Source: an uncultured bacterium | GTDB taxonomy: Bacteria > Patescibacteriota > Minisyncoccia > Phycocordibacterales > UBA2100 | Direction of reading: 5' to 3' | Length of the DNA: 59,449 nucleotides | Assembly: GCA_903854215.1 (NCBI GenBank) | Contig: CAINVT010000058.1 | Coordinates: 1 to 59,449 of the forward strand | Shown: piece after piece, positions 1,521 through 21,205 of the stretch | Numbering within the stretch: the first letter of the stretch is position 1 | How the letters are laid out: each line of letters begins with the position of its first letter | Translations under genes and position numbers: made by a program | The notes under the pieces: generated by a model | What the model was told of the DNA's origin: nothing | The model's database searches: none | Seen by the model: the letters and a program-made list of their open reading frames with translations, nothing else

Positions 1521-1958
1521 TCAGAGCATACTTCGCTTCCGAAGTAACCGTGTCAAAACGTGACGTTCATGCGGTGGCAACGATGGCAACGCCAGCGCTG
1601 CTTCTACGGTGAACCATGCCTTTCCTTGTCCTTCACGCAGCTGCAATCGCTGCCACGGTTCCCAGTGCACGATGAACGTATGGTCGAGCACGCGCATAAC
1701 TGCTCGCCCGCGCTTCTTGAAATGCCACGCTACATCGAATAATCGATGTTCGGGCAAAAGACCATAGCCGAGTTCTTCTCTCCATTCACGACAAAGAGCT
1801 TGAAACGGAGACTCGCCCCGTTCGACACCGCCACCAAAGAATGCCCCGCAACCGGGATAGACATGTGCCCGCCTGCATCGTAAATGAAGAAGCACCCGAC
1901 CATCTCTTCTCAGCAGCATGGCACATGCCCCGCGCTTGTGATGTGTTATGTGCCGCAT
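1521..1958 (-). CDS. NUDIX hydrolase
   Basis: Nudix box GGGVERGESPFQALCREWREELG; SD GGAAGGAGG and TTGACC-17-CACTAT upstream. Confidence 0.85.
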   Translation of the reverse strand: MRHITHHKRGACAMLLRRDGRVLLHLRCRRAHVYPGCGAFFGGGVERGESPFQALCREWREELGYGLLPEHRLFDVAWHFKKRGRAVMRVLDHTFIVHWEPWQRLQLREGQGKAWFTVEAALALPSLPPHERHVLTRLLRKRSML

Positions 1959-11509: not shown

Positions 11510-13093
11510 TTACGAAACCGTATTGCCAGTGCGTTTTTCTTCGTGATAATCCTCTTCGGAATTGATCGACCAGAGGGCCGACTTGTCGGTGCGACCGGCA
11601 ATGATATTGTCGACCGCCATCATGGCGGCGAGCATCGAATGATCTTGATTGTTGTATCGATGCATGCCGTTACGACCGATGAGAAAGAGATTTTCGAACT
11701 GATTGAAATGATCGCGTACGACAGAGAGTCGATCGTATGTACCGGTGTAACTCGGATACGCTTTCGGCTGCCGAATCACGACGCCGCCGATCACCGTACG
11801 ATCACGTAGCAATCCGATCTTCGCAAGTTCTTCACCGGCGAATGCGACAAGATCCTCGTCACGCATATTCCATAATGCATCACCTTCCGCACAAAAATAT
11901 TCGAGTCCGACCCAACCGCGTGATTGATCGGCAAGCAATTGCGGACTCCAATTGTTGAAAAATTGCACACGACCTACGTTGACCCCCGGTTCATGCACGT
12001 ACATCCATGTATCAAGAAATGGTGATCTGTCCGCTTCAACGAGCGGCGCATCAAGCAAAAGTCCGACCGTCAAAAAATCACGATATTGCAGGCCACCCGC
12101 AACGTCTTCGACTTCGGCCGGCAGATGACCGTTGAAAATCTGTGCCAAAAGACGCACGTCGGTCGTCGAAAAAACATAATCCGCATCGATGATCTCCGTC
12201 CCCGCTTTTGTCTGTACCTGCACGCTTGTAACGCGTGAACCCGCGCTTTCTATACCGACGACTGACTCACCCATGCGCACCTCGCCACCCTTTGATTGCA
12301 CCTGATCAGCGACACGTTCCCACAATTGGCCTGGTCCGTAAACAGGATATAAAAACTGTTCGATCAAGGATGTCTCGACGGATTTTCCCGCAAGTGGTCC
12401 GGCATGCAACAGCTTCTTGATCGCATGTGCGATCGCACCGCTCACCGAAAGACTCTTGATACGCTGCGCGCCCCACTCGGCCGAAAGTTCTCGACACGGA
12501 ACGCCCCAGACTTTTTCTGTATACGATTTGAAGAACGTCTTGTAGAGCTCAGTACCGAATCGATTGATGAAAAAATCTTCGAGCGTCGTCTCCGGCTTGC
12601 GTGGAAAAAGTCGCGACCACATGTACGTCCATCCGATCTTCACGACCTTCACGGGTCCCAGTTTGGAAAGCGTATCGAACGATAATTCAACGGGATACGC
12701 GAAAAGTTTGCCGCCGTAGAGAATGCGCGTCTTGCGCGGACGTACACGCAGGACGTTCTCACCGTCTGCCGACGATGCCATACGCATACCGTCCGTGAGC
12801 GCGCGCGTCGTGCGTTGATACGTGATATCGGTGCTTTTGTCGAGATCCAATTCGACCGGCAAGATCTCGCTCCACCATTTCATCACGCGATCCGACTTCG
12901 AGAAAAATCGATGGCCGCCGAGATCAATGCGATTGCCGTTCCATTTGACCGTACGCGAAATACCGCCGACGTATTCAGCATCTCGCTCGATCACGATCGG
13001 CTTGATATCGGTCCGCGTCAATAATTCATATGCTGCGGTAAGTCCCGCCGGCCCCGCACCGATAATGACTGCGATCTTTTTCTTTTCATTCAT
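11510..13093 (-). CDS. FAD-dependent oxidoreductase (UDP-galactopyranose mutase / amine oxidase-like family)
   Basis: [39 protein letters not shown]. Confidence 0.88.
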
Positions 13094-13196
13094 AGAAATA
13101 TGATCAACGACAGTGCGGCAATCGTAGCATAAAAGTTGAAGGTCGGCTTTTGCGCCGACCTTCTGTTCGTGTTCGCATTCATTCGCATTCACGAGC

Positions 13197-13721
13197 CTAG
13201 AGTTTTCCGTTCTCGCGTCGCACAGCCGTTTTTTCCAGAAACCATTGACGCCAGCCAAGCACATCAACGATGGGAAAAACGACGTCAAGAATAAGGTCAG
13301 TCATCAATTCCTGCGGTCGCGGAATACCGAAGATGACGCGATGACTGACATTCTTCTCATTCCGCGTCAGCCACCAGACACGCGGGAAATGCGATAGTGA
13401 TGAAACAACGACGAGTTGGGCATTATTCTCGCGCACTCTGTTCAGAGCAGCTTCGATTTGGCCGATCGTCTCGAACCCTTCTGGAATGACGATCGTATTT
13501 TGACCGCCGAGTTTTCCAAGCGCTTCACGTTGAAAATCGCGCTCGAAAAATCCAGGCTCTTCAAAACCGCTCACGACCAGCAGTGCGCACTGTGCACTAC
13601 CGGCCCAACGTTGGATTAGTACGGCGGCTTCGCACGCGCGATACCAGTCCTGCCATCGAAGCGGACCGATACGACCCACGGGGTTCGGGCTTTTCATCAA
13701 TGGAAGAACAAAAGTGTACAC
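13197..13721 (-). CDS. YdcF/ElyC (DUF218)-like protein
   Basis: [23 protein letters not shown] pattern. Confidence 0.55.
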
Positions 13722-13794
13722 CTCTACTCCTCCCTAAAAGACTGTCGGACTTCGTATACTATGACATTTTGATACAAAAAAGCAAGTGTTAGCA

Positions 13795-15270
13795 CTATCG
13801 CGGCGGACGCGTGCGCTTCGTCCGTCGAATTAACATATCCGTGAATGCTGAAACACCGGTAATCGCGAGGATGAAAAGATACGGCTCCGCGGGGATGCGG
13901 TAGCGCGCGAGAGAAACGGGGCCGGTGAGCAGTGCGAAGTACGCGACGAGTCCGGTAAATAACAGCATATAAAAGAGTTCGCCCCGCCGAATGATGAGCG
14001 CAGAAAGCGCGCCGAGGCATACGATGAACCAGAACGCGACTTCGAGTAAGATCGGCATGATCGTCCCAAGGCGAGCAAGCCGATCGCGAATGGTGCCGGA
14101 GGTACGTATTTGTGCGAGTACTGTCGAAGGCGGCACAAGATAGCTGCTGTTATCGCGTTCCTGCATCACCATCTGTTCATATGCCGCAACGCTGCTGTCG
14201 GCGAAAAATGGGATCGTATTGATCACATGAAAATAGGCGTACGAGAACGGATGCTGGAGGATCAGATCCTCCGCAAGCCTTCCTTGCTGATTCGTTTGAT
14301 CACCGCCCGGCGGTGTCAGCTGTGCGAGGCCTGCAGCTATCATTTTGTCGACTTGTGCGTATGCAGGATCAGCCCACGCGATTCGTACCGCAGCAATCGC
14401 CGAGATGTGCTCACCATTTGCATTCATCAAGCGCCACGCAAGAAAGTCACGCACATTGTACTCGAGAAGATTACTTGCTCCCACATGCGCGATCTCGATC
14501 GCGCCAAAATCTCGATCATTACGGATCACCCACGGCGTGACGACGAGGAGAACTGCGACAATATAAACGCACAGCGGAAGGATCATCGTTTTCCATTGCT
14601 TCATGGTGTTCACTGCGAAGATACCGCCGGGGCGGAAAAGATACATGATCGGTAGGATCGGGATCAAAAATTCGCCGATCGGCCGAATGAGGACCGCAAC
14701 GCCCATGAGAACTCCGACGAACGCCCAACGTATGATCTCGCGACCACGACTGCGCAGTTCGAAGAAAAACATCAAATAGACGCACATGACGATGAGTGAA
14801 CTGAAAATGCCGTCGGTGATGATCGTCGTGTTGCCGATGATGACCGAAGGGTCGAGCATGTACAGCAATGCGGGCACGAGTGCGAGCGCGGGTTGCACGA
14901 AACGTTGCGCCATCACATAGACCAAGATCGACGCGACAAGCGCGAGCATTGTTTGGATGACGACCGCGAGTACGAACCCTCCGCTTATCGCTTTCACGCC
15001 AGCAAGAAAGAGCGCATAGCCCGGCGGCCATTGCCGCTCCGGCGAGAGGTCAGGACTGTATGAAAAGACACCGTGTGCGAGGATGTTGTCGGCCATGAGC
15101 GCGTAACTTTGTGAATCCCCTTTCACGATAGGATACGGCGCCGACTGCGGATTGTGTACGGCACTGTGCGCGAGATACGCGTACGAGGATGCGTAGGTAC
15201 CTATGAGGATGATCGTCAGAATGAGAAGCCGATTCTGCTCTGATTGCAGCGCACCTCGAAACAAGTTCAT
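13795..15270 (-). CDS. GT-C integral membrane glycosyltransferase (ArnT/PMT-like)
   Basis: GDSQSY loop, PPGYALFL, VLIRP, PWVIRN, ARYRIP; many TM segments. Confidence 0.85.
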   Translation of the reverse strand: MNLFRGALQSEQNRLLILTIILIGTYASSYAYLAHSAVHNPQSAPYPIVKGDSQSYALMADNILAHGVFSYSPDLSPERQWPPGYALFLAGVKAISGGFVLAVVIQTMLALVASILVYVMAQRFVQPALALVPALLYMLDPSVIIGNTTIITDGIFSSLIVMCVYLMFFFELRSRGREIIRWAFVGVLMGVAVLIRPIGEFLIPILPIMYLFRPGGIFAVNTMKQWKTMILPLCVYIVAVLLVVTPWVIRNDRDFGAIEIAHVGASNLLEYNVRDFLAWRLMNANGEHISAIAAVRIAWADPAYAQVDKMIAAGLAQLTPPGGDQTNQQGRLAEDLILQHPFSYAYFHVINTIPFFADSSVAAYEQMVMQERDNSSYLVPPSTVLAQIRTSGTIRDRLARLGTIMPILLEVAFWFIVCLGALSALIIRRGELFYMLLFTGLVAYFALLTGPVSLARYRIPAEPYLFILAITGVSAFTDMLIRRTKRTRPPR

Positions 15271-15271
15271 A

Positions 15272-16114
15272 TCAGACGCGATTGTGGTCGTCTTCGAGTC
15301 GAACGATGTCGTTCTCGTCAAAATCACCGAGCGCGATCTCGACGACGATACCACCTTTTTTCGATTCGAGTCGGTGCACCGCCTTCACATCCACATTGAT
15401 CACCTCACCTCTTTTCATCGAGATCAGGCGCGGTGTACCGTCTTTGTCATGGACAGTCGCTACTGCATCCCCCTCCACGAGCATCCAATGTTCCTGTCGG
15501 TGATGATGATATTGCAAACTCAAACGCTGCTTCGGACTGATATAGATCGTTTTTAATTTCCATCCCTCACCCGCATCCCATCCATAAAATTCTCCCCACG
15601 GACGTACCGATCGGACGAAGTTGCGCGCCGCATCGCGAATCATCCATGACGACGATTGGACCTTGCCACCCCTTCCGATATTGTAGACAACTTTGATGCC
15701 CAACTTTTTGCAAAGTTCTACTTCGGGTATCGGATCACCACTCGGCTTACGATCGCCGCCATTGGCAAAGATTGCAGGTTTGAGTTTGGCGAGTTCGCGC
15801 GAGACACTTCGATCAGGATCATCTTTCTTGTGCGAAGTCAGCACAACCTTATCGACGAACGGAAAACTCTTGATGATCTCGGCGCGCTCTTTCTCTTGCA
15901 TGAATACATGTCCCTTCTTGGAACGAAGCCAATTATCATTGTTAATGACAACGACAAGCTTGTCGCCCAGCTTGTGTGCCGCTTCAAACATCCGCACGTG
16001 CCCGATATGTATCGGATCAAAACCGCCCGAAACCATGACCCACTGCTCCGCGCGAGGTTTCGCCGCGTTTGCCTTCTTCATATTCTTTCCTTTTTTCGCA
16101 TGTGTGATGGCCAT
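15272..16114 (-). CDS. cytidylyltransferase (TagD/RfaE-like) fused to a mannose-6-phosphate isomerase-type cupin
   Basis: SGGFDPIHIGH, ANGGDR, KVQSSS, then RPWG..RLSLQYHHHRQEHW..DIVRLEDD. Confidence 0.9.
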   Translation of the reverse strand: MAITHAKKGKNMKKANAAKPRAEQWVMVSGGFDPIHIGHVRMFEAAHKLGDKLVVVINNDNWLRSKKGHVFMQEKERAEIIKSFPFVDKVVLTSHKKDDPDRSVSRELAKLKPAIFANGGDRKPSGDPIPEVELCKKLGIKVVYNIGRGGKVQSSSWMIRDAARNFVRSVRPWGEFYGWDAGEGWKLKTIYISPKQRLSLQYHHHRQEHWMLVEGDAVATVHDKDGTPRLISMKRGEVINVDVKAVHRLESKKGGIVVEIALGDFDENDIVRLEDDHNRV

Positions 16115-16139
16115 ACTTCTTTTATCGTTACGTGCGAAT

Positions 16140-16175
16140 AGTCTAGCAAGCCCGACATGAACGCGCTAGGATGAA
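16140..16175 (+). repeat. direct repeat, left of the NYN cassette
   Basis: AGTCTAGCAAGC-N8-AACGCGCTAGGATGAA, repeated at 16974-17009. Confidence 0.85.
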
Positions 16176-16253
16176 AGTACATCAGACGGTTAAGGGATTT
16201 TGTGTATTTTGCATACAGCATTGTGAACATATAATTGCTATATAATTGCCAAA

Positions 16254-16886
16254 ATGAAAACTTTTGCTTTTATTGATGCGTCCAACCTCTTTTATGGCGG
16301 CCAGAAATCGCTCGGCTGGAGCATCGATTATGCAAAGCTCCGAGACTATTTGAAAGAAAAATATGGCATTGAGCGAGCGTACTTTTTCGGCGGTGTTGAA
16401 ATATATCGGTATCCGTTTGATTATCTTGCGTACGAGTCAGTGCCCATCCGACAGCTTGAGCATTACATTCTCGATTTGATACAGAAAGAAGGCACACGAA
16501 TGACTGAGGCACAACTCGTTCTTTTCGATCGGCACCTGAAGCGCATTCGTTTCTATCGCAAACTGGAGTCATTCGGCTACACACTCATTTTGAAACCAGT
16601 CAAGACATATACAGACGAGGATGGCAACCCGCGTCGCAAAGCAAATTGCGATGTCGACATGGCTTTCTATCTTATGCGCGAACGCGACGACTTCGAACGT
16701 GCGCTGATACTTTCTGGCGATGGCGATTTCCTGCCCGTACTAAAATTCCTCAAAAAGAACGGTAAGCAGGTTGTCGTACTCGCGCGTAGCCCGCGCACCG
16801 CAAAAGAAATAAAGCAGTTCGCAGGGAACAACTTCAGGGATTTTGAGTACCTGCGCGAATTACTCAAACGCGATGATGAGGGGTGA
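16254..16886 (+). CDS. NYN-domain (LabA/DUF88, PIN-like) nuclease
   Basis: FIDASNL, KANCDVDM, ILSGDGDF acidic motifs intact; TATAAT 7 nt before ATG. Confidence 0.92.
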   Translation: MKTFAFIDASNLFYGGQKSLGWSIDYAKLRDYLKEKYGIERAYFFGGVEIYRYPFDYLAYESVPIRQLEHYILDLIQKEGTRMTEAQLVLFDRHLKRIRFYRKLESFGYTLILKPVKTYTDEDGNPRRKANCDVDMAFYLMRERDDFERALILSGDGDFLPVLKFLKKNGKQVVVLARSPRTAKEIKQFAGNNFRDFEYLRELLKRDDEG

Positions 16887-16964
16887 AAACAGCGAGCGGC
16901 ACCCATGTAGGATGCCGCTCAAGTCTGGTACCAGTTATGATAGATGATCGGCGCAAAAAGTCAA
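16884..16964 (-). ncRNA. candidate convergent small RNA and its promoter downstream of the NYN gene
   Basis: TTGACT-16-TATCAT (16964-16937) followed by an 11-bp hairpin at 16894-16920 and a short U run. Confidence 0.5.
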
Positions 16965-16973
16965 TGACAAGTC

Positions 16974-17009
16974 AGTCTAGCAAGCAAGGCAGCAACGCGC
17001 TAGGATGAA
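16974..17009 (+). repeat. direct repeat, right of the NYN cassette
   Basis: Second copy of AGTCTAGCAAGC-N8-AACGCGCTAGGATGAA. Confidence 0.85.
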
Positions 17010-17013
17010 CGAT

Positions 17014-18297
17014 ATGGGTGGAAAATTCGACGATCTCGCTGCACGATTTACCGCATTCACAGGGCGAATATTGAAAACCGATGGTCGCTATTTGCTTCAC
17101 GGCGGCTTCTGGTCGTTCATAGGTCAAGGCTCGGCAATTGTATCTTCGCTCGCGCTCGCCGTCGTCATTAGTCGGTACGTGCCGAAGGATGTCTACGGTG
17201 ACTATAAATACGCGCTCGCCGTCATCGGCATTCTTTCGATATTCACGCTCAACAGTCTCTCGTCGGCTGTCTTCCAATCGATTGCGCGCGGATTTGACGG
17301 TGCTTTGTTGGACGGCTTCCGCATCAATCTGCGCTGGAGCATCCTCGCGTTTGTCGGCGCGCTCGGCATCGCGGCGTATTATCTGTTCGCGCATAACTTC
17401 GTGCTCGCATTCTGCATTCTCCTCGGCGGATGTGTGATGCCTTTCCAGAACAGCGCAAATCTGTTCATTGCGTTCCTCGCAGGCAAAAAAGATTTCGCGC
17501 GCCGTGCGCTCTATGCCGACATGCTCGGCAATATCATCCCCGCGATCCTCATGATCGCGGTCGCGCTCTGGCTGCCGAATCTGATCGCGCTCGTCGTCGC
17601 CTATTTCATCGGTAATCTTGCCGTCGATCTCTATTTTTTCCGGCGGACCATGCAGCTCTATAAGCCCGATCCGGAGAAGAAAGATCCGGCAATGAAGACT
17701 TACGGACTTCACCTGAGTGCGATCGGCATTCTCGGCGGCATCGCGGGCAATTTCGATCAGATCCTCCTCTTCCATTTTGTGAGCGCAGCCGACCTCGCCG
17801 TCTACGCATTTTCAATCGGCATTCTCGACCAGGTGAAAGGGCCGGCCAAGATGCTCGACACGATGATGCAGGCGCACTTTGCGAACCGCGATTCCTCTGA
17901 CATCAAAAGTGGCATCGGCAACAAGATGCTCTGGATGCTCGGGGTCGCCGTCCTCATGATCGCCGTCTATTACGTCTGTGCACCGTTCATATTCAAGATC
18001 CTCTTCCCCGCATACCTCGCCGCGATCTCCTATTCGCGTCTCTACGTGTTCAACCTCCTCAGTCTCGCCGTAGTACCGATCAGCTCGTACTTCACCGCGC
18101 ACAAAAAAATCAAGGAACAATACATATCGAGCATCGGCGGCAACGCGATCATAATCATCTTCATGAGCGTAGGGACGATCTTCTGGGGTCTGTGGGGGCT
18201 CATCGCCGCCCGCGTCGCGGCGAGCATCGCTTCTAGTTTACTCTCCCTTATACTGTATTGGTATGCCACGAGAATTGATATGGGAGTTGCAGGTTGA
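17014..18297 (+). CDS. Wzx-type oligosaccharide flippase
   Basis: About 12 TM segments, ISRYVPKDVYGDY, FDQILL; start may be 17005 or 17014. Confidence 0.88.
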   Translation: MGGKFDDLAARFTAFTGRILKTDGRYLLHGGFWSFIGQGSAIVSSLALAVVISRYVPKDVYGDYKYALAVIGILSIFTLNSLSSAVFQSIARGFDGALLDGFRINLRWSILAFVGALGIAAYYLFAHNFVLAFCILLGGCVMPFQNSANLFIAFLAGKKDFARRALYADMLGNIIPAILMIAVALWLPNLIALVVAYFIGNLAVDLYFFRRTMQLYKPDPEKKDPAMKTYGLHLSAIGILGGIAGNFDQILLFHFVSAADLAVYAFSIGILDQVKGPAKMLDTMMQAHFANRDSSDIKSGIGNKMLWMLGVAVLMIAVYYVCAPFIFKILFPAYLAAISYSRLYVFNLLSLAVVPISSYFTAHKKIKEQYISSIGGNAIIIIFMSVGTIFWGLWGLIAARVAASIASSLLSLILYWYATRIDMGVAG

Positions 18298-18301
18298 TCC
18301 T

Positions 18302-19297
18302 ATGCTTGAAACACCTGTCGCACTTTTCATATTCAACCGCCCCGAAGAAACGGCGCGCACGTTCGATGCGATCCGGGGAGCGCGACCGCGAAAACTTTTT
18401 ATCATCGCCGACGGTCCACGGTATCCCGAAGAGATACCGCTCTGCGAAGCGACTCGCGCCGTGACCGAGCACATTGACTGGTCTTGCGAGGTAAAACGTA
18501 ATTACACACCTATAAATATGGGGTGCGATCCGCGTGTATCTTCTGGAATTTCATGGGTGTTCATGCATGTCGACCGCGCGATCTTTCTTGAAGACGACTG
18601 CGTTGCCGATGGTTCGTTCTTCACGTTCTGCCAGGAACTTCTAGATCGATACACGAACGACACGCGCATACTTCTCATTGGCGGAACATCGTGTCAGGAA
18701 AAAAATCCCGATTATAAGGCAACTGCAAGCTACTATTTTTCCATGATGTCTATGGGCTGGGGCGCATATGGTACATGGCGGCGTGCATGGAGCCAGTACG
18801 ACTGGGACATGAAGCGCTGGCCGTCGTTGCGAGACTCCGGCGAACTCAAGCGGATATTCGACAATCCAGCCGCCTACGAGCGATTCGCACGCGTATGGGA
18901 TGAATATTATGAGGAAAAGATCCATCACACGTGGGATGGGCCATGGTCATTCGTACAAGCCATCAATGGCGGCCTGTGCGCCAATCCGGTGATCAATCTC
19001 GTCGAGAACATCGGGTTCAACGAGCGCGCATCCCATCAAAAGGTCAACCATCCTGGTTGGGTCGATCTACCGTCGAAACACATGACCTTTCCGCTCGTCC
19101 ACCCGTCCACCGTCACGCGCGATCGGGCTGCGGAAAATTTCGATTTCCTTTTTTTCTTTGGTATCGACAAAACCTCGTGGCAACGCATGATCCGACCGAT
19201 AAAAAATCGGTTTCCTACCTTGCACCACTTTGCAAAAGCATTGCGAACAAAGATTCGTACTGTTTTGCTTGCGAGGAAAGAGAAAAATCAATCGTAA
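18302..19297 (+). CDS. GT-A fold nucleotide-diphospho-sugar transferase
   Basis: PVALFIFNRP, IIADGPR, IFLEDDC, WGAYGTWRRAW, NLVENIGF. Confidence 0.85.
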   Translation: MLETPVALFIFNRPEETARTFDAIRGARPRKLFIIADGPRYPEEIPLCEATRAVTEHIDWSCEVKRNYTPINMGCDPRVSSGISWVFMHVDRAIFLEDDCVADGSFFTFCQELLDRYTNDTRILLIGGTSCQEKNPDYKATASYYFSMMSMGWGAYGTWRRAWSQYDWDMKRWPSLRDSGELKRIFDNPAAYERFARVWDEYYEEKIHHTWDGPWSFVQAINGGLCANPVINLVENIGFNERASHQKVNHPGWVDLPSKHMTFPLVHPSTVTRDRAAENFDFLFFFGIDKTSWQRMIRPIKNRFPTLHHFAKALRTKIRTVLLARKEKNQS

Positions 19298-20477
19298 CTC
19301 GTTCGTATCCGGCGCGACCCATCGCATGTACTTTTTGATGATTGGATAAAAGCACGTCTATCTGGTCCGCAAGCATCTTCGTATCGAACGGATTGACAAT
19401 GTATCCTGACACGCCATCTTCGACAATCTCACGTGACCCGCCGAAGCACGTCGCAACGACGGGTTTTGCGCATGCGAACGCTTCGAGATTCATAGTAGGA
19501 AACGAATCAAATGAGAGTGTCGGCACGGCCACTATCGAGGCGGTATGATATGCAGCATGCAGATTGGCGCCGGAGACCCATCCGGTAAAAATGATTGCGT
19601 CGGAAATACCGAGGCGTTGCGCATAGTTCAACATGTTATCCGCAGCTGAATCCTTTTTCCCGATGACGAGAAGTTGCGCCGCGGGGATACGTTCGCGTAC
19701 TAATGCGACTGCTTCGACTATTTTCGATGTGCCTTTGACCCCCGAGAGCCGACCCCCGAAAAGGACTGCTGATTTTCCGATGTTGTGCTCACGCTTAAAC
19801 TGTTCAATCGACTCTGCCGATTCTTTCCATTCATCTACGTCGATACCGTTATGAATAACCTCGACATTGCCGATCCCGTTATCATTGAGTGCAATCTTCA
19901 AAGCATCGCTCACTGCGATGATCTTATTAACATCGCGAGCGAGAATCCGTCGGATGAGAAAATTGCGGAACGGATTGTATCGGAGCCGTTGTTCGCGCAA
20001 CTGCCGTAGCGGATGTATACGATAATTGAAATCGTGCGGAATCGCAAGATTGGTAGGATCAATGTATTCAGTGAGCTTTGAGTAGTTGAACGACATGACA
20101 TCGTGAGCCGTCAGAACGACACGCGCTCCGGATTTGTGCGCGAGTGTGAGCGTACGATACGACAGATATCCGTGGACATTGTGCACATGCACAATGTCCG
20201 GTTTGAACTCGCGTAAAATTCTTTTTACCTCTCGCGTTGCGCGAGGATTCCACAAGCTCACGTACGCTTGGAAACGCAGATCGTATGACGTTACGATCCG
20301 GAAAACCGGTATACCCTCGTATTCGGACTGCCCCTGCTTTTCTCGATCACGTGATGTCGTAACGACGAATACATCGTGCCCATCCCTTTTGAATTGTCGT
20401 GCGAGATTCGACGCGATTGCCGCAGCTCCACCGTAGCCTTCGGGTGGAAAATCGTCTTGTAAGATAAGGATTTTCAT
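19215..20477 (-). CDS. glycosyltransferase family 4
   Basis: FPPEGYGGA, IHNGID, DSFPTMNLEAFACAKPVV. Confidence 0.9.
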   Translation of the reverse strand: MKILILQDDFPPEGYGGAAAIASNLARQFKRDGHDVFVVTTSRDREKQGQSEYEGIPVFRIVTSYDLRFQAYVSLWNPRATREVKRILREFKPDIVHVHNVHGYLSYRTLTLAHKSGARVVLTAHDVMSFNYSKLTEYIDPTNLAIPHDFNYRIHPLRQLREQRLRYNPFRNFLIRRILARDVNKIIAVSDALKIALNDNGIGNVEVIHNGIDVDEWKESAESIEQFKREHNIGKSAVLFGGRLSGVKGTSKIVEAVALVRERIPAAQLLVIGKKDSAADNMLNYAQRLGISDAIIFTGWVSGANLHAAYHTASIVAVPTLSFDSFPTMNLEAFACAKPVVATCFGGSREIVEDGVSGYIVNPFDTKMLADQIDVLLSNHQKVHAMGRAGYERVTIDFSLSSQAKQYESLFAMLLQSGAR

Positions 20478-21205
20478 ATGAGTTCGAAATTCGTCACATA
20501 CCGACAATCTGTTCGGTGTGCGATATATGCCAAAAATTGATCGAGTTCATTCCACATATCATAGCGCTCGATCTCCCACGAATGGCCCCACAAATGAAAG
20601 ACTTCCCCGCGCTCGTGTGCTATGTCGAACGTCGCACGGGCCAACGCTTCCCAGGATCTGAATGATGGAAGAGACACCCCGAGTGCACGCAATGCGGGTG
20701 CACGTTCGCGTAAAGGACCGAGAAGATCTCGCCATACATACTGTGTCTTGTTCTTTTTTCGAAACGGCATCGGGTATACCTGCAACGTCGTCGGCATCTG
20801 AAAAGGATTTTCGGCAATTTTTATTTCTCCCAACTGCGTCGTCCGCGCACCACGGAATCCTGCTTGTCGTGCTGCCGCTTCCGCTTCAAGATCAAGATGT
20901 CCGCTCGGATAACAAAACATCGGCACCTCTCGTTGCAAGAGTTTCTCAAGCCATTCTTTCGATCCTGCGATTTCGCGTATTTTTTCTTCGTTGCTGATCT
21001 TCCGCAGGTCGGGATGCGTGAGCGTATGCGCACCGATTTCATGTCGGCTCCCGATCATGCGAATCGAATCGTCGCTGAGCCGCATCGGCCGATAATTTTG
21101 TGCGATATAGAAAGTCCCTTTGAGCCCATGGGTATCAAGAAGCGCGGCGAGTTTTTCATCAAGCACGTCTCCGTCGTCCCAACTTGTCGTGACAAGAATG
21201 CTCAT
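20474..21205 (-). CDS. polysaccharide deacetylase
   Basis: TSWDDG, HEIGAHTLTHPDL, FCYPSG, FHLWGHSWE. Confidence 0.9.
   Translation of the reverse strand: MSILVTTSWDDGDVLDEKLAALLDTHGLKGTFYIAQNYRPMRLSDDSIRMIGSRHEIGAHTLTHPDLRKISNEEKIREIAGSKEWLEKLLQREVPMFCYPSGHLDLEAEAAARQAGFRGARTTQLGEIKIAENPFQMPTTLQVYPMPFRKKNKTQYVWRDLLGPLRERAPALRALGVSLPSFRSWEALARATFDIAHERGEVFHLWGHSWEIERYDMWNELDQFLAYIAHRTDCRYVTNFELI

What the first reader, a model, noticed from the sequence alone, without database searches (positions are those of the whole stretch)
16254..16964. NYN nuclease with a convergent ~50-nt hairpin RNA: candidate RNA-antitoxin or RNA-partnered nuclease
Seen: right after the NYN stop lies the hairpin GAGCGGCATCC-TACAT-GGGTGCCGCTC, fully paired (one G-U) only on the minus strand, with a minus-strand promoter TTGACT-16-TATCAT about 16 nt before it and no ORF to drive. 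The nuclease keeps its acidic motifs. Established: type III toxin-antitoxin systems pair an RNase with a small RNA. Inference: an undescribed NYN plus ncRNA module for defence or addiction.
Basis: partly seen in the sequence, partly recalled or inferred. Interest (0 to 1): 0.75.

Follow-up and report, generated by a model that had tools for sequence, protein, structure and literature searches.

The report
NYN nuclease with conserved partner RNA
A small nuclease gene of ultra-small (Patescibacteria) bacteria always travels with its own tiny hairpin RNA gene pointing back at it, forming a compact mobile two-part module that looks like an undescribed RNA-controlled nuclease, possibly a toxin with an RNA antidote.

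Summary
NYN gene 16254-16886 (+) is followed by a minus-strand unit: promoter TTGACT-16-TATCAT (16964-16937), start near 16929, 9-nt leader, 11-bp hairpin (16920-16894), U-tract ending on the NYN stop codon. The same unit follows 78 of 79 assessable homologues from many Patescibacteria lineages. The stem covaries: 99.9% of cells paired, 9 of 11 pairs compensatory, with an invariant A-U and U.G pair. The promoter keeps a fixed distance. U-tract and stability favour the minus strand only, so it is not NYN's terminator. Rfam has no match.

RNA and NYN co-occur exactly: the same 4 of 150 phylum genomes. In the genus, 5 genomes have both, 4 keep the RNA beside NYN remnants, 0 have NYN alone. Gene context is unconserved, and host-derived direct repeats often flank the module.

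Best reading (about 0.5): a mobile toxin-antitoxin-like pair whose RNA restrains the NYN RNase. Expression, toxicity and binding are untested. It is not a member of the known type III or type I families.

The parts
16140..16175 (+). Left copy of a 36-nt direct repeat flanking the module. It is host intergenic sequence and duplicates the ribosome-binding site and start region of the downstream flippase gene.
   Evidence: the repeat finder family D2, 31 of 36 identical to 16974-17009. There are only these 2 copies in the window (0 expected) and in the whole 1.1-Mb genome.
16208..16246 (+). Promoter region of NYN. It holds TTTGCA-16-TATAAT (16208-16235) and a second TATAAT (16241-16246) that ends 7 nt before the ATG, so the mRNA is probably leaderless or nearly so.
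   Evidence: Promoter scan, 10 of 12, and sequence read. In relatives, a -10-like hexamer ends 6-7 nt before the start codon in 39 of the 70 loci that have a good hexamer (78 examined).
16254..16886 (+). NYN-domain (PF01936) nuclease gene, 210 aa. It carries a subfamily-specific two-helix insert at about residues 50-106.
   Evidence: Pfam E=1.3e-18. AlphaFold2 model: mean pLDDT 93.3, pTM 0.89, helices 65-82 and 85-106. Foldseek best match 2qip (NYN) at E=3e-8, plus the MARF1 NYN domain and T5 flap endonuclease. D8, N11, K129, D133, G155 and D156 are invariant in 44 sequences.
16885..16929 (-). Predicted ~45-nt small RNA. It has a 9-nt single-stranded leader ACCAGACUU (16929-16921), an 11-bp stem (16920-16910 with 16904-16894), the loop UACAU (16909-16905), and the tail GCUGUUUU, which runs onto the NYN stop codon.
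   Evidence: Fold. Alignment of 79 sequences without gaps. Covariation. Covariance model R1 scores this site at 65.1 bits, E=2e-10, and it is the only strong hit in the genome. No Rfam match.
16937..16964 (-). Sigma-70-type promoter of the small RNA: -35 TTGACT (16964-16959), 16-nt spacer, -10 TATCAT (16942-16937). The predicted start, A at 16929, lies 7 nt after the -10.
   Evidence: In relatives, 67 of 78 sites match at least 9 of 12 positions against 19 of 1560 control windows, and the -10 ends 6 nt before the conserved first A in 70 of 78.
16974..17009 (+). Right copy of the 36-nt flanking direct repeat. It overlaps the start of the polysaccharide flippase gene (17005..18297).
   Evidence: The flippase matches Pfam PF01943.

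Best explanation
This is a self-contained, horizontally mobile two-gene module of about 760 bp. One gene encodes a NYN-fold metal-dependent RNase, transcribed from its own promoter as a probably leaderless mRNA. The other, on the opposite strand and pointing at it, is a tiny RNA gene. It has a near-consensus sigma-70 promoter, a 9-nt single-stranded leader (A-Y-Y-A-R-A-C-N-U), an 11-bp hairpin with an invariant A-U / U.G step under a 5-nt loop, and a U-tract that ends on or next to the NYN stop codon.

The RNA most likely restrains the nuclease, as an RNA antitoxin would. It could do so by binding NYN directly through the leader and the G.U-marked helix (type III-like). It could also pair with the complementary 3' end of the NYN transcript (type I-like). 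If the short-lived RNA stops being made, after gene loss or transcription shut-off by a phage, NYN would be freed to cut cellular RNA.

Shown here: the RNA element, its structure, its strand, its promoter, its exclusive linkage to this NYN subfamily, and the module's mobility.

Inferred: that it is transcribed as a discrete small RNA, that NYN is toxic, and that the RNA neutralises it.
For: 1. The element follows 78 of 79 assessable homologues (62-79% protein identity, many Patescibacteria lineages) plus the window. The one miss has only 47 nt of contig after the stop codon.

2. Structure: 99.9% of 847 cells form pairs and 9 of 11 pairs show compensatory changes. There are 136 double-change cells against 30.1 +/- 4.7 in shuffles (0 of 500 reach it). 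Sliding the partners by 1-3 columns gives 32-51% paired.

3. Strand: U18.G28 is present in 77 of 77 distinct sequences and would be an A-C mismatch on the plus strand. The hairpin is more stable on the minus strand in 79 of 79. At least 5 T in 8 follow the stem on the minus strand in 71 of 79 loci and on the plus strand in 0 of 79.

4. Promoter: 67 of 78 match at least 9 of 12 positions against 1.2% of controls. TTG and TAnnnT are nearly invariant, and the -10 sits 6 nt before the first conserved A in 70 of 78.

5. Linkage: in an even draw of 150 genomes of the phylum, the same 4 genomes carry the RNA and the NYN gene, adjacent to each other. The other 146 have neither.

6. Asymmetry within the genus: of 116 genomes, 5 have NYN plus RNA, 4 have the RNA with NYN deleted or reduced to a remnant, and 0 have a close NYN without the RNA. 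Elsewhere, NYN carries a nonsense codon with the RNA intact in L046 and L092. A viral contig has an internally deleted NYN with the RNA intact.

7. Co-divergence: the two leader types (AGAC, AAAC) follow the two main NYN clades (SH-aLRT 99; 77 rows, quick tree).

8. Selfish or mobile behaviour: there is no conserved neighbour. The largest non-NYN cluster occurs in 6 of 81 loci, and the 140 neighbour proteins are mostly unrelated housekeeping genes. The module sits at other loci in congeners.

9. NYN looks catalytically competent. A bacterial NYN protein has been shown to be a Mn-dependent ssRNA nuclease (abstract of bioRxiv 10.1101/2024.04.08.588522). PADLOC holds NYN models among candidate defence proteins (E=2e-9 and 1e-6, partial matches).
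Against: No transcript evidence exists: no RNA run holds the region.

Toxicity, RNA binding and RNA instability are all untested.

Retention of the RNA after NYN decay could simply reflect that a 90-bp target is hit less often than a 630-bp gene. In 2 of the 4 genus remnants the RNA gene itself is degenerating.

The architecture differs from every described RNA-antitoxin system.

One divergent relative (L138, 38% identity) keeps the promoter and leader but has only a 4-bp hairpin. Two relatives at 41% identity (L133, L137) show no such RNA. The G.U helix is therefore not indispensable across the wider family.

Neighbours are mostly housekeeping genes, not defence islands.

The family was not found in 50,697 phage records. 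In plasmids the only matches were at 29% identity.
Confidence: 0.5

Rival explanations
1. Cis-acting expression control without toxicity. The strong convergent promoter and its terminator act as an insulator and antisense device. Polymerases firing from it collide with NYN transcription, since NYN has no terminator of its own. The short RNA pairs with the NYN 3' end. Together they set NYN level and stop read-through into host genes. NYN itself would have an ordinary RNA-processing role.
For: No U-tract follows the stem on NYN's strand in 0 of 79 loci, so NYN transcripts must run into the RNA gene. A 44-nt RNA would overlap the NYN stop codon or ORF in 52 of 79 loci. A mobile cassette inserted next to housekeeping genes would benefit from insulation.
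Against: A pure antisense or collision device needs no conserved sequence. Yet A1, A4, A6, C7 and U9 of the leader and the A-U / U.G step are invariant across lineages whose neutral sites are saturated. The loops (UAUAU, or UUCGY in 14 of 79) are poor kissing loops. An ordinary housekeeping RNase would not be present in only about 3% of genomes at varying loci.
Confidence: 0.2
2. The RNA is a positive partner of NYN: a cofactor, specificity subunit or dedicated substrate. NYN and RNA would form a working ribonucleoprotein. The constant 9-nt leader might pair with a conserved target, or NYN might process the leader-plus-helix the way protein-only RNase P enzymes process a 5' leader on an acceptor-like helix.
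For: Linkage is exclusive and the two co-diverge. The leader is single-stranded with invariant bases, followed by U9 and G10 at the helix base. NYN carries a helical insert after strand 2, and the model also matches T5 flap endonuclease (Foldseek probability 1.0, TM about 0.45), an enzyme that handles 5' single-stranded tails on duplexes. R93, H94, R97 and F100 in the insert are invariant among 25 close relatives.
Against: If the RNA were needed only for NYN activity, it should decay together with NYN. Instead it persists with an intact promoter after NYN deletion in L112 and L114. The leader is constant, so it cannot act as a programmable guide. No target was identified. The comparison with RNase P substrates is my own analogy and was not tested.
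Confidence: 0.15
3. The promoter drives a protein: the minus-strand ORF that starts in the hairpin (16667..16906, 79 aa) is a real overlapping gene, for example a protein antitoxin.
For: A minus-strand ORF of at least 60 aa starts within the first 45 nt of the RNA in 48 of 79 loci, with a median of 76 aa.
Against: The open antisense frame is explained by NYN's amino-acid sequence. It is stop-free over the last 72 codons in 37 of 80 loci, against 43% after shuffling synonymous codons, so there is no excess. The apparent start codon sits at three different places and frames in the RNA. 31 of 79 loci have no such ORF of at least 60 aa. A terminator hairpin with a U-tract lies between promoter and ORF body. 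The window's peptide is Ser/Arg-rich low-complexity sequence.
Confidence: 0.03
4. DNA-level element. The hairpin would be a recombination or nicking site used for the cassette's mobility, with NYN as the DNA nuclease, and the transcription signals would be incidental.
For: The module is mobile and often flanked by host-derived direct repeats. PIN-like folds include DNA flap nucleases. A G.T wobble would also mark one DNA strand.
Against: A near-consensus promoter at a fixed 6-nt distance and a U-tract placed for termination are conserved in nearly all loci, and both are RNA-level features. The flanking repeats lie 35-200 nt outside NYN and 0-114 nt beyond the promoter, not at the hairpin. The repeat pattern fits homologous recombination rather than site-specific cutting.
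Confidence: 0.04
5. One reading: the hairpin is merely the intrinsic terminator of the NYN gene and the promoter match is chance.
For: It lies right after the stop codon. In the window alone, the promoter-like count is not above shuffles.
Against: The U-tract is on the opposite strand in 71 of 79 loci and on NYN's strand in 0 of 79. The hairpin is weaker on NYN's strand in 79 of 79. The promoter is conserved in 67 of 78 loci against 1.2% of controls.
Confidence: 0.02

Closest known systems
Type III toxin-antitoxin systems (ToxIN, CptIN, TenpIN)
   Same: A protein endoribonuclease is paired with a small non-coding RNA encoded next to it. They are compact, mobile and patchily distributed. The proposed logic, a labile RNA holding an RNase in check, is the same (abstracts of PMC3401426, PMC5086642 and PMC8860590, seen in the listing).
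   Different: The toxin fold here is NYN/PIN-like, not ToxN-like. The RNA is a single 45-nt hairpin rather than a tandem array of about 36-nt repeats. It lies downstream and convergent with its own promoter, rather than upstream on the same transcript. No processing or complex formation has been shown.
Type I toxin-antitoxin loci with convergent, 3'-overlapping antisense RNAs (for example txpA/RatA and bsrG/SR4 of Bacillus subtilis; recalled, not read here)
   Same: Convergent arrangement: the small RNA's 3' part is complementary to the 3' end of the toxin transcript.
   Different: Type I toxins are small hydrophobic peptides, whereas here the protein is a 210-aa nuclease. The RNA is much shorter than typical type I antitoxins. 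It carries invariant helix features that simple antisense pairing does not require.
VapBC and other PIN-domain toxins of type II systems
   Same: The toxin candidate belongs to the PIN-like superfamily of metal-dependent RNases (classification in PMC5499597, passages read). The module is mobile and has varying context.
   Different: No protein antitoxin gene is present. The NYN (PF01936, COG1432) cluster is listed as 'function unknown' in that classification and is not among its predicted toxins.
CRISPR-associated NYN ribonuclease of Bacteroides fragilis
   Same: It is a bacterial NYN protein shown to cleave single-stranded RNA with Mn2+, and it acts on a small structured RNA precursor (abstract of 10.1101/2024.04.08.588522).
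   Different: That protein sits in a type III CRISPR locus and trims crRNA. Here there is no CRISPR array or cas gene, and the RNA is a single dedicated gene.
Nuclease genes with an RNA encoded at their 3' end in mobile elements (TnpB/IscB with omega RNA; recalled)
   Same: A selfish cassette consisting of one nuclease gene plus one structured RNA abutting its 3' end.
   Different: Omega RNAs are long, co-directional and carry a variable guide taken from the flank. Here the RNA is 45 nt, convergent, and has a constant leader.

Membership tests
Pfam NYN domain (PF01936; LabA-like / COG1432 cluster) | Profile match above the curated gathering score | tested here: met
   68.4 bits against a cut-off of 24.2, E=1.3e-18
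Pfam NYN domain (PF01936; LabA-like / COG1432 cluster) | Conserved acidic metal-binding residues | tested here: met
   D8, D133 and D156 invariant and D158 at least 90% conserved in 44 sequences. D135 is nearly invariant among 25 close relatives.
Pfam NYN domain (PF01936; LabA-like / COG1432 cluster) | NYN variant of the PIN-like fold | tested here: met
   Model pLDDT 93.3. Best Foldseek match is 2qip at E=3e-8 with TM 0.75 on the target. The MARF1 NYN domain 5yaa gives TM 0.71. An extra two-helix insert is present that 2qip lacks.
Type III toxin-antitoxin | Toxin of the ToxN/AbiQ, CptN or TenpN families | tested here: not met
   Pfam finds only NYN. PADLOC finds only NYN and HEC-09 models. 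The fold is NYN.
Type III toxin-antitoxin | Antitoxin RNA is a tandem array of repeats upstream of the toxin on the same strand, separated by a terminator | tested here: not met
   There is a single hairpin, downstream, on the opposite strand, with its own promoter. No tandem repeat appears in 15500-17600.
Type III toxin-antitoxin | RNA binds and inhibits the toxin protein; toxin is growth-inhibiting alone | not testable with these tools
   Needs expression and binding assays.
Type I toxin-antitoxin | Toxin is a small hydrophobic peptide | tested here: not met
   A 210-aa soluble NYN nuclease
Type I toxin-antitoxin | Antitoxin is an antisense RNA overlapping the toxin mRNA | tested here: inconclusive
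   The geometry allows it. A 44-nt RNA would reach the stop codon or ORF in 52 of 79 loci, and NYN has no terminator of its own strand. Neither transcript's ends are known.
Intrinsic terminator of the NYN gene | G+C-rich hairpin followed by a U-tract on the gene's own strand | tested here: not met
   At least 5 T in the 8 nt after the stem: plus strand 0 of 79, minus strand 71 of 79. The hairpin is weaker on the plus strand in 79 of 79.
Any curated RNA family (Rfam 15) | Covariance-model match | tested here: not met
   The only hit in 15500-17600 at E up to 10 is snoRNA sR1 at 11.9 bits against a gathering score of 45.

The most novel reading that the evidence does not exclude
A new class of RNA-antitoxin module. 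A NYN-fold RNase toxin would be neutralised by a dedicated 45-nt hairpin RNA, made from its own convergent promoter and recognised through a 5' leader and an invariant G.U-marked helix. The module would spread among Patescibacteria as a minimal addiction or abortive-infection cassette. It would move by recombining through the conserved 3' ends of housekeeping genes, leaving duplicated host sequence on both sides.
Probability: 0.4. Interest if true: 0.85.

Novelty: new variant of a known kind. Interest (0 to 1): 0.78.

Why it matters
RNA-antitoxin systems with protein toxins are known for only a few toxin folds. Patescibacteria make up a large share of bacterial diversity, yet their toxin-antitoxin systems, defence systems and non-coding RNAs are poorly described.

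This is a clean, testable case. It pairs a 210-aa nuclease with a 45-nt RNA, with strong covariation, exact co-occurrence and an obvious experiment: express each alone and both together.

If the RNA restrains NYN, it adds a toxin fold and a new gene layout to RNA-based toxin control. It would also give a function to part of the large 'function unknown' PF01936 cluster.

The flanking duplications of housekeeping-gene ends differ only at synonymous sites. They offer a rare view of how a cassette with no transposase or integrase moves between genomes.

Tried and rejected
RNA evidence: the look-up of sequencing runs listed 7 runs from 2 studies, of which 6 hold at least part of the stretch. All are DNA, and no RNA holder was listed.

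Population variants: laying contigs of 4 DNA runs on 15500-17700 gave only short pieces. No joint skipped the cassette, so this says nothing on an empty site.

Empty-site comparison in congeners: the cupin gene is found in 48 of 80 congeners. The closest (G086, 74% DNA identity) has a different neighbour gene ending 7 nt before it. Neither the flippase nor the repeat matched in 11 fetched loci. No empty site was recovered.

More distant NYN relatives: a search of 400 phylum genomes with P0130 (44% identical to the window's NYN) returned only members about as distant from P0130 as the window is. The context of P0130-like proteins stays unseen.

Paralogues: the other NYN paralogues of this genome and the weak homologues in relatives (L002-L006, L009-L015) have no R1 match. 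A weak R1 hit at G000:C25:46231-46276 (E=0.07) is not next to a NYN gene.

Shine-Dalgarno absence as evidence for a leaderless mRNA was dropped. An SD-like motif occurs in 1 of 81 NYN genes but also in only 12 of 88 neighbour ORFs.

Leader pairing: pairing of the leader with the U-tail, or with the 5' end of NYN mRNA, was inspected by eye. It was not consistent across variants and was not pursued.

Literature: five full-text searches found no paper that links a NYN protein to an RNA antitoxin or describes this RNA. The searches were NYN domain/Patescibacteria/small RNA; type III toxin-antitoxin/NYN/RNA antitoxin; CPR/noncoding RNA/covariation/motif; NYN/antitoxin/LabA/DUF88/defense island; and Patescibacteria/toxin-antitoxin/NYN. 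Only listings and abstracts were seen, apart from passages of PMC5499597 and the abstract and outline of 10.1101/2024.04.08.588522.

Phages and plasmids: there was no match in 50,697 phage records. Three Sinorhizobium plasmids matched at 29% identity only.
Full report
**What is in the window.** ORF 16254..16886 (+) encodes a 210-aa protein. It matches Pfam NYN (PF01936) at E=1.3e-18. Seven bases after its stop codon lies an inverted repeat, 16893-16921. The terminator scan calls it on the minus strand: 12 pairs, a 5-nt loop and the tail CTGTTTTC. In a 61-nt context the minus strand folds at -27.3 kcal/mol (z=-5.3; 0 of 200 shuffles as good). The plus strand folds at -22.0 kcal/mol (z=-2.0; 10 of 200). 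A minus-strand promoter-like site, TTGACT-16-TATCAT (16964..16937), matches 10 of 12 positions and points at the hairpin. By itself that site is not above chance, since the region has 5 such sites against 3.5 +/- 1.5 in shuffles. Rfam 15 has nothing here: the only hit at E up to 10 is a 12-bit snoRNA match. The question was whether it means anything.

**Conservation answers that.** The NYN protein has 2896 hits in the 90%-clustered protein collection, and the best 120 are 66-100% identical. In the 50%-clustered library only 27 representatives reach E<=1e-30, so this is a tight, abundant family. I fetched 80 loci from species-representative genomes at 61-79% identity. Nearly all are labelled as Patescibacteria lineages: Kaiser-, Lloyd-, Nomura-, Gottesman-, Roizman-, Peri-, Wolfe-bacteria and others. 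A few carry non-Patescibacteria bin labels that I could not check.
- One locus ends inside the ORF.
- Of the other 79, 78 show the same unit just after the stop codon: hairpin, a short conserved stretch, then ATTATA-like and GTCAA-like boxes on the plus strand.
- The one exception has only 47 nt of contig left.

Read on the minus strand, the unit is TTGACA-N16-18-TATAAT, 6 nt, A-Y-Y-A-R-A-C-N-U-G, an 11-bp stem, a 5-nt loop, the returning stem, and a U-rich tail.

**The RNA structure is supported by covariation.**
- The 79 sequences (window plus 78) align without a single gap over leader, stem and loop.
- For the 11-pair helix, 99.9% of 847 cells form standard pairs.
- 9 of 11 pairs show changes on both sides.
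- 136 cells carry double changes against 30.1 +/- 4.7 in column shuffles (0 of 500 reach it).
- Sliding the 3' partners by 1-3 columns drops pairing to 32-51%.
- RNAalifold predicts the same helix on its own.
- Two neighbouring pairs never vary: A17-U29 and U18.G28, in 77 of 77 distinct sequences. The pairs around them switch freely (C-G, U-A, A-U).

**The strand is the minus strand.**
- The invariant U.G would be an A-C mismatch in a plus-strand transcript.
- The hairpin is more stable on the minus strand in 79 of 79 sequences (mean -17.8 against -12.4 kcal/mol).
- At least 5 T in 8 follow the stem on the minus strand in 71 of 79 loci and on the plus strand in 0 of 79.

The hairpin is therefore a terminator for a minus-strand transcript, not for NYN.

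**The promoter is conserved at a fixed distance.** I anchored on the first conserved A.
- 67 of 78 loci (one was too short) have a -35/-10 pair matching at least 9 of 12 positions, against 19 of 1560 random windows from the same loci.
- T, T, G of the -35 and T, A, T at positions 1, 2 and 6 of the -10 are present in 75-78 of 78.
- The -10 ends exactly 6 nt before that A in 70 of 78.

The spacer itself is not conserved, which fits a promoter. The predicted product is a 42-46-nt RNA. In the window it runs from 16929 to about 16886. A 44-nt RNA would overlap the NYN stop codon or ORF in 52 of 79 loci.

**Linkage to NYN is exclusive.** I built covariance model R1 from the alignment. It finds one strong site in the window's 1.1-Mb genome, and that site is this one.
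- Phylum draw: among 150 genomes drawn evenly, 4 have an R1 match. The same 4, and no others, have a close NYN gene (E<=1e-15), and the RNA is directly adjacent to it.
- Larger draw: 13 of 400 genomes carry the family.
- Genus: of 116 genomes, 5 (including this one) have NYN and all 5 have the RNA. Four more have an R1 match without an intact NYN. None has a close NYN without the RNA.
- The four genus remnants: L114 keeps NYN codons 2-18 joined almost directly to the hairpin, with an intact TTGACC-17-TATACT promoter. L112 keeps only the last ~20 NYN codons plus an RNA gene with a recognisable promoter. In L116 and L117 both NYN and the RNA gene are decaying.
- Elsewhere: L046 and L092 have a single TAA inside an otherwise intact NYN, with the RNA intact. 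An IMG/VR contig has an internally deleted 110-aa NYN with the RNA at E=1.6e-9.

The pattern 'nuclease decays first, RNA stays' is what an antitoxin would show. A 90-bp gene is also simply a smaller target than a 630-bp gene, so this is a hint and not proof.

**More distant relatives keep the layout.** Three NYN genes at 31-38% identity (L138, L139, L140; two of them with stop codons) are followed by a convergent promoter, a ~10-nt leader, a hairpin and a U-tract of diverged sequence. In L138 the leader ACUAAACCUC is kept while the stem is only 4 bp. Two genes at 41% identity (L133, L137) show no such RNA. These were read by eye from the sequence.

**The module is a discrete, mobile unit.**
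- Context: clustering all ORFs within 3 kb of NYN in 81 loci gives no conserved neighbour. The largest non-NYN cluster occurs in 6 loci.
- Neighbours: Pfam on 140 immediate neighbours shows unrelated, mostly housekeeping genes (PPDK, L7/L12, GAPDH, topoisomerase, RuvB, RuvC, YchF, IleRS and others). There are a few integrases, reverse transcriptases and toxin-antitoxin genes.
- Congeners: the module sits on other contigs than the cupin gene that neighbours it here. DNA similarity to the window spans exactly 16254-16964.
- Phylogeny: the NYN tree does not follow the lineage labels (quick tree, 77 rows; L046 and L092 were dropped for internal stops).
- Flanking repeat in the window: a 36-nt direct repeat flanks the module (16140-16175 and 16974-17009; 31 of 36 identical). 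It occurs nowhere else in the genome.
- Flanking repeats elsewhere: 15 of 73 assessable loci have an exact flanking direct repeat of at least 14 nt, up to 58 nt exact and 122 nt with mismatches. In 500 mismatched locus pairs, 0 reach 14 nt. The repeated sequence differs at each locus, so it is host sequence.
- Synonymous-only differences: in L017 the last 44 codons and the stop of the upstream PPDK gene are present on both sides of the module. The two copies differ at 13 bases, all synonymous, 12 of them at third codon positions. In L092 the duplicated end of the L7/L12 gene differs at two third positions (read).

Two copies that have both evolved as coding sequence must come from two genomes. 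This fits transfer of the module together with a piece of a conserved neighbour gene, followed by integration through a single homologous crossover. That mechanism is inferred, not shown.

**The protein.** AlphaFold2 on a 44-sequence alignment gives mean pLDDT 93.3. Foldseek finds the NYN protein 2qip (E=3e-8), the MARF1 NYN domain and T5 flap endonuclease. D8, N11, K129, D133, G155 and D156 are invariant across relatives down to 30% identity. Residues ~50-106 form a two-helix insert that 2qip lacks, with invariant R93, H94, R97 and F100 among close relatives. It is a plausible RNA-binding surface, but that is inference. A bacterial NYN protein has been shown to be a Mn-dependent, sequence-nonspecific ssRNA nuclease (abstract). 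The PF01936/COG1432 cluster is listed as function unknown in the PIN-superfamily classification (passages).

**Rival readings.**
- Antisense ORF. The minus-strand ORF in the window (79 aa) has counterparts of at least 60 aa in 48 of 79 loci. However, the frame is stop-free in 37 of 80 loci against 43% after synonymous-codon shuffling, the 'start' falls in three different frames, and a terminator intervenes. I treat it as a by-product of NYN's sequence.
- Antisense or collision device. This explains the geometry but not the invariant bases.
- Positive cofactor or substrate. This role remains possible.
- DNA-level role. This does not explain the promoter and the U-tract.

**Verdict.** The element, its strand, its promoter, its linkage and the module's mobility are well supported by computation. 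The function is inferred. I rate an RNA-antitoxin-like restraint of the NYN RNase at about 0.5. Which mechanism applies, protein binding or antisense pairing, is left open. The module is not a member of the described type III or type I families. No paper among five full-text searches describes it.

Noticed in passing
window 16140-16175 and 16974-17009; loci L017, L031, L040, L044, L052, L053, L065, L082, L092: Host-derived direct repeats of varying length flank the NYN-RNA module. They run from 16 to 58 nt exact, and up to 122 nt with mismatches. In L017 the duplicated 3' end of a PPDK gene differs at 13 sites, all synonymous, which suggests integration by homologous recombination with donor DNA.
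   Followed up: partly
window 16241-16253; upstream regions of L016-L095: A -10-like hexamer ends 6-7 nt before the NYN start codon in 39 of the 70 loci that have a good hexamer. The NYN mRNA may therefore be leaderless. Shine-Dalgarno motifs are rare in these loci generally (12 of 88 neighbour ORFs).
   Followed up: partly
window 16667-16906 (minus strand): A 79-aa antisense ORF overlaps the 3' third of NYN. Similar ORFs occur in 48 of 79 loci. Synonymous-codon shuffling reproduces the open frame, so it is a by-product of NYN's amino-acid sequence.
   Followed up: yes
NYN residues about 50-106 (window 16401-16571): This is a subfamily-specific two-helix insert after strand 2, with invariant R93, H94, R97 and F100. 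The model also matches T5 flap endonuclease, whose helical arch sits at the corresponding place.
   Followed up: partly
L112 about 1620-1800 and L116 about 1550-1800 (minus strand as read): In two congeners the orphan RNA gene lies directly after a small ORF. By eye, its end looks like a RelE/ParE-type toxin. This was not scanned against any family library.
   Followed up: no
L133 (G530), about 110 nt after the NYN stop: A NYN relative at 41% identity lacks the RNA. It is followed instead by a convergent 29-codon ORF and a minus-strand terminator-like hairpin. This was read by eye only.
   Followed up: no
L026, L034, L039, L042, L056, L091: A ~340-aa reverse transcriptase (Pfam RVT_1 in the 4 that were scanned) lies within 3 kb of the module in 6 of 81 loci. 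It is the most frequent neighbour cluster. The type of reverse transcriptase was not determined.
   Followed up: no
G000 contigs C48, C44, C64, C25: The genome holds four or five further, distant NYN-domain paralogues (E=2e-9 to 4e-4). One has an internal TAA. None has the RNA element next to it.
   Followed up: partly
window 11510-20507: The module is inserted in a polysaccharide-synthesis region. It sits between a cytidylyltransferase/mannose-6-phosphate-isomerase-type gene (15272..16114, minus strand) and a Polysacc_synt flippase (17005..18297). Congeners arrange this region differently.
   Followed up: partly
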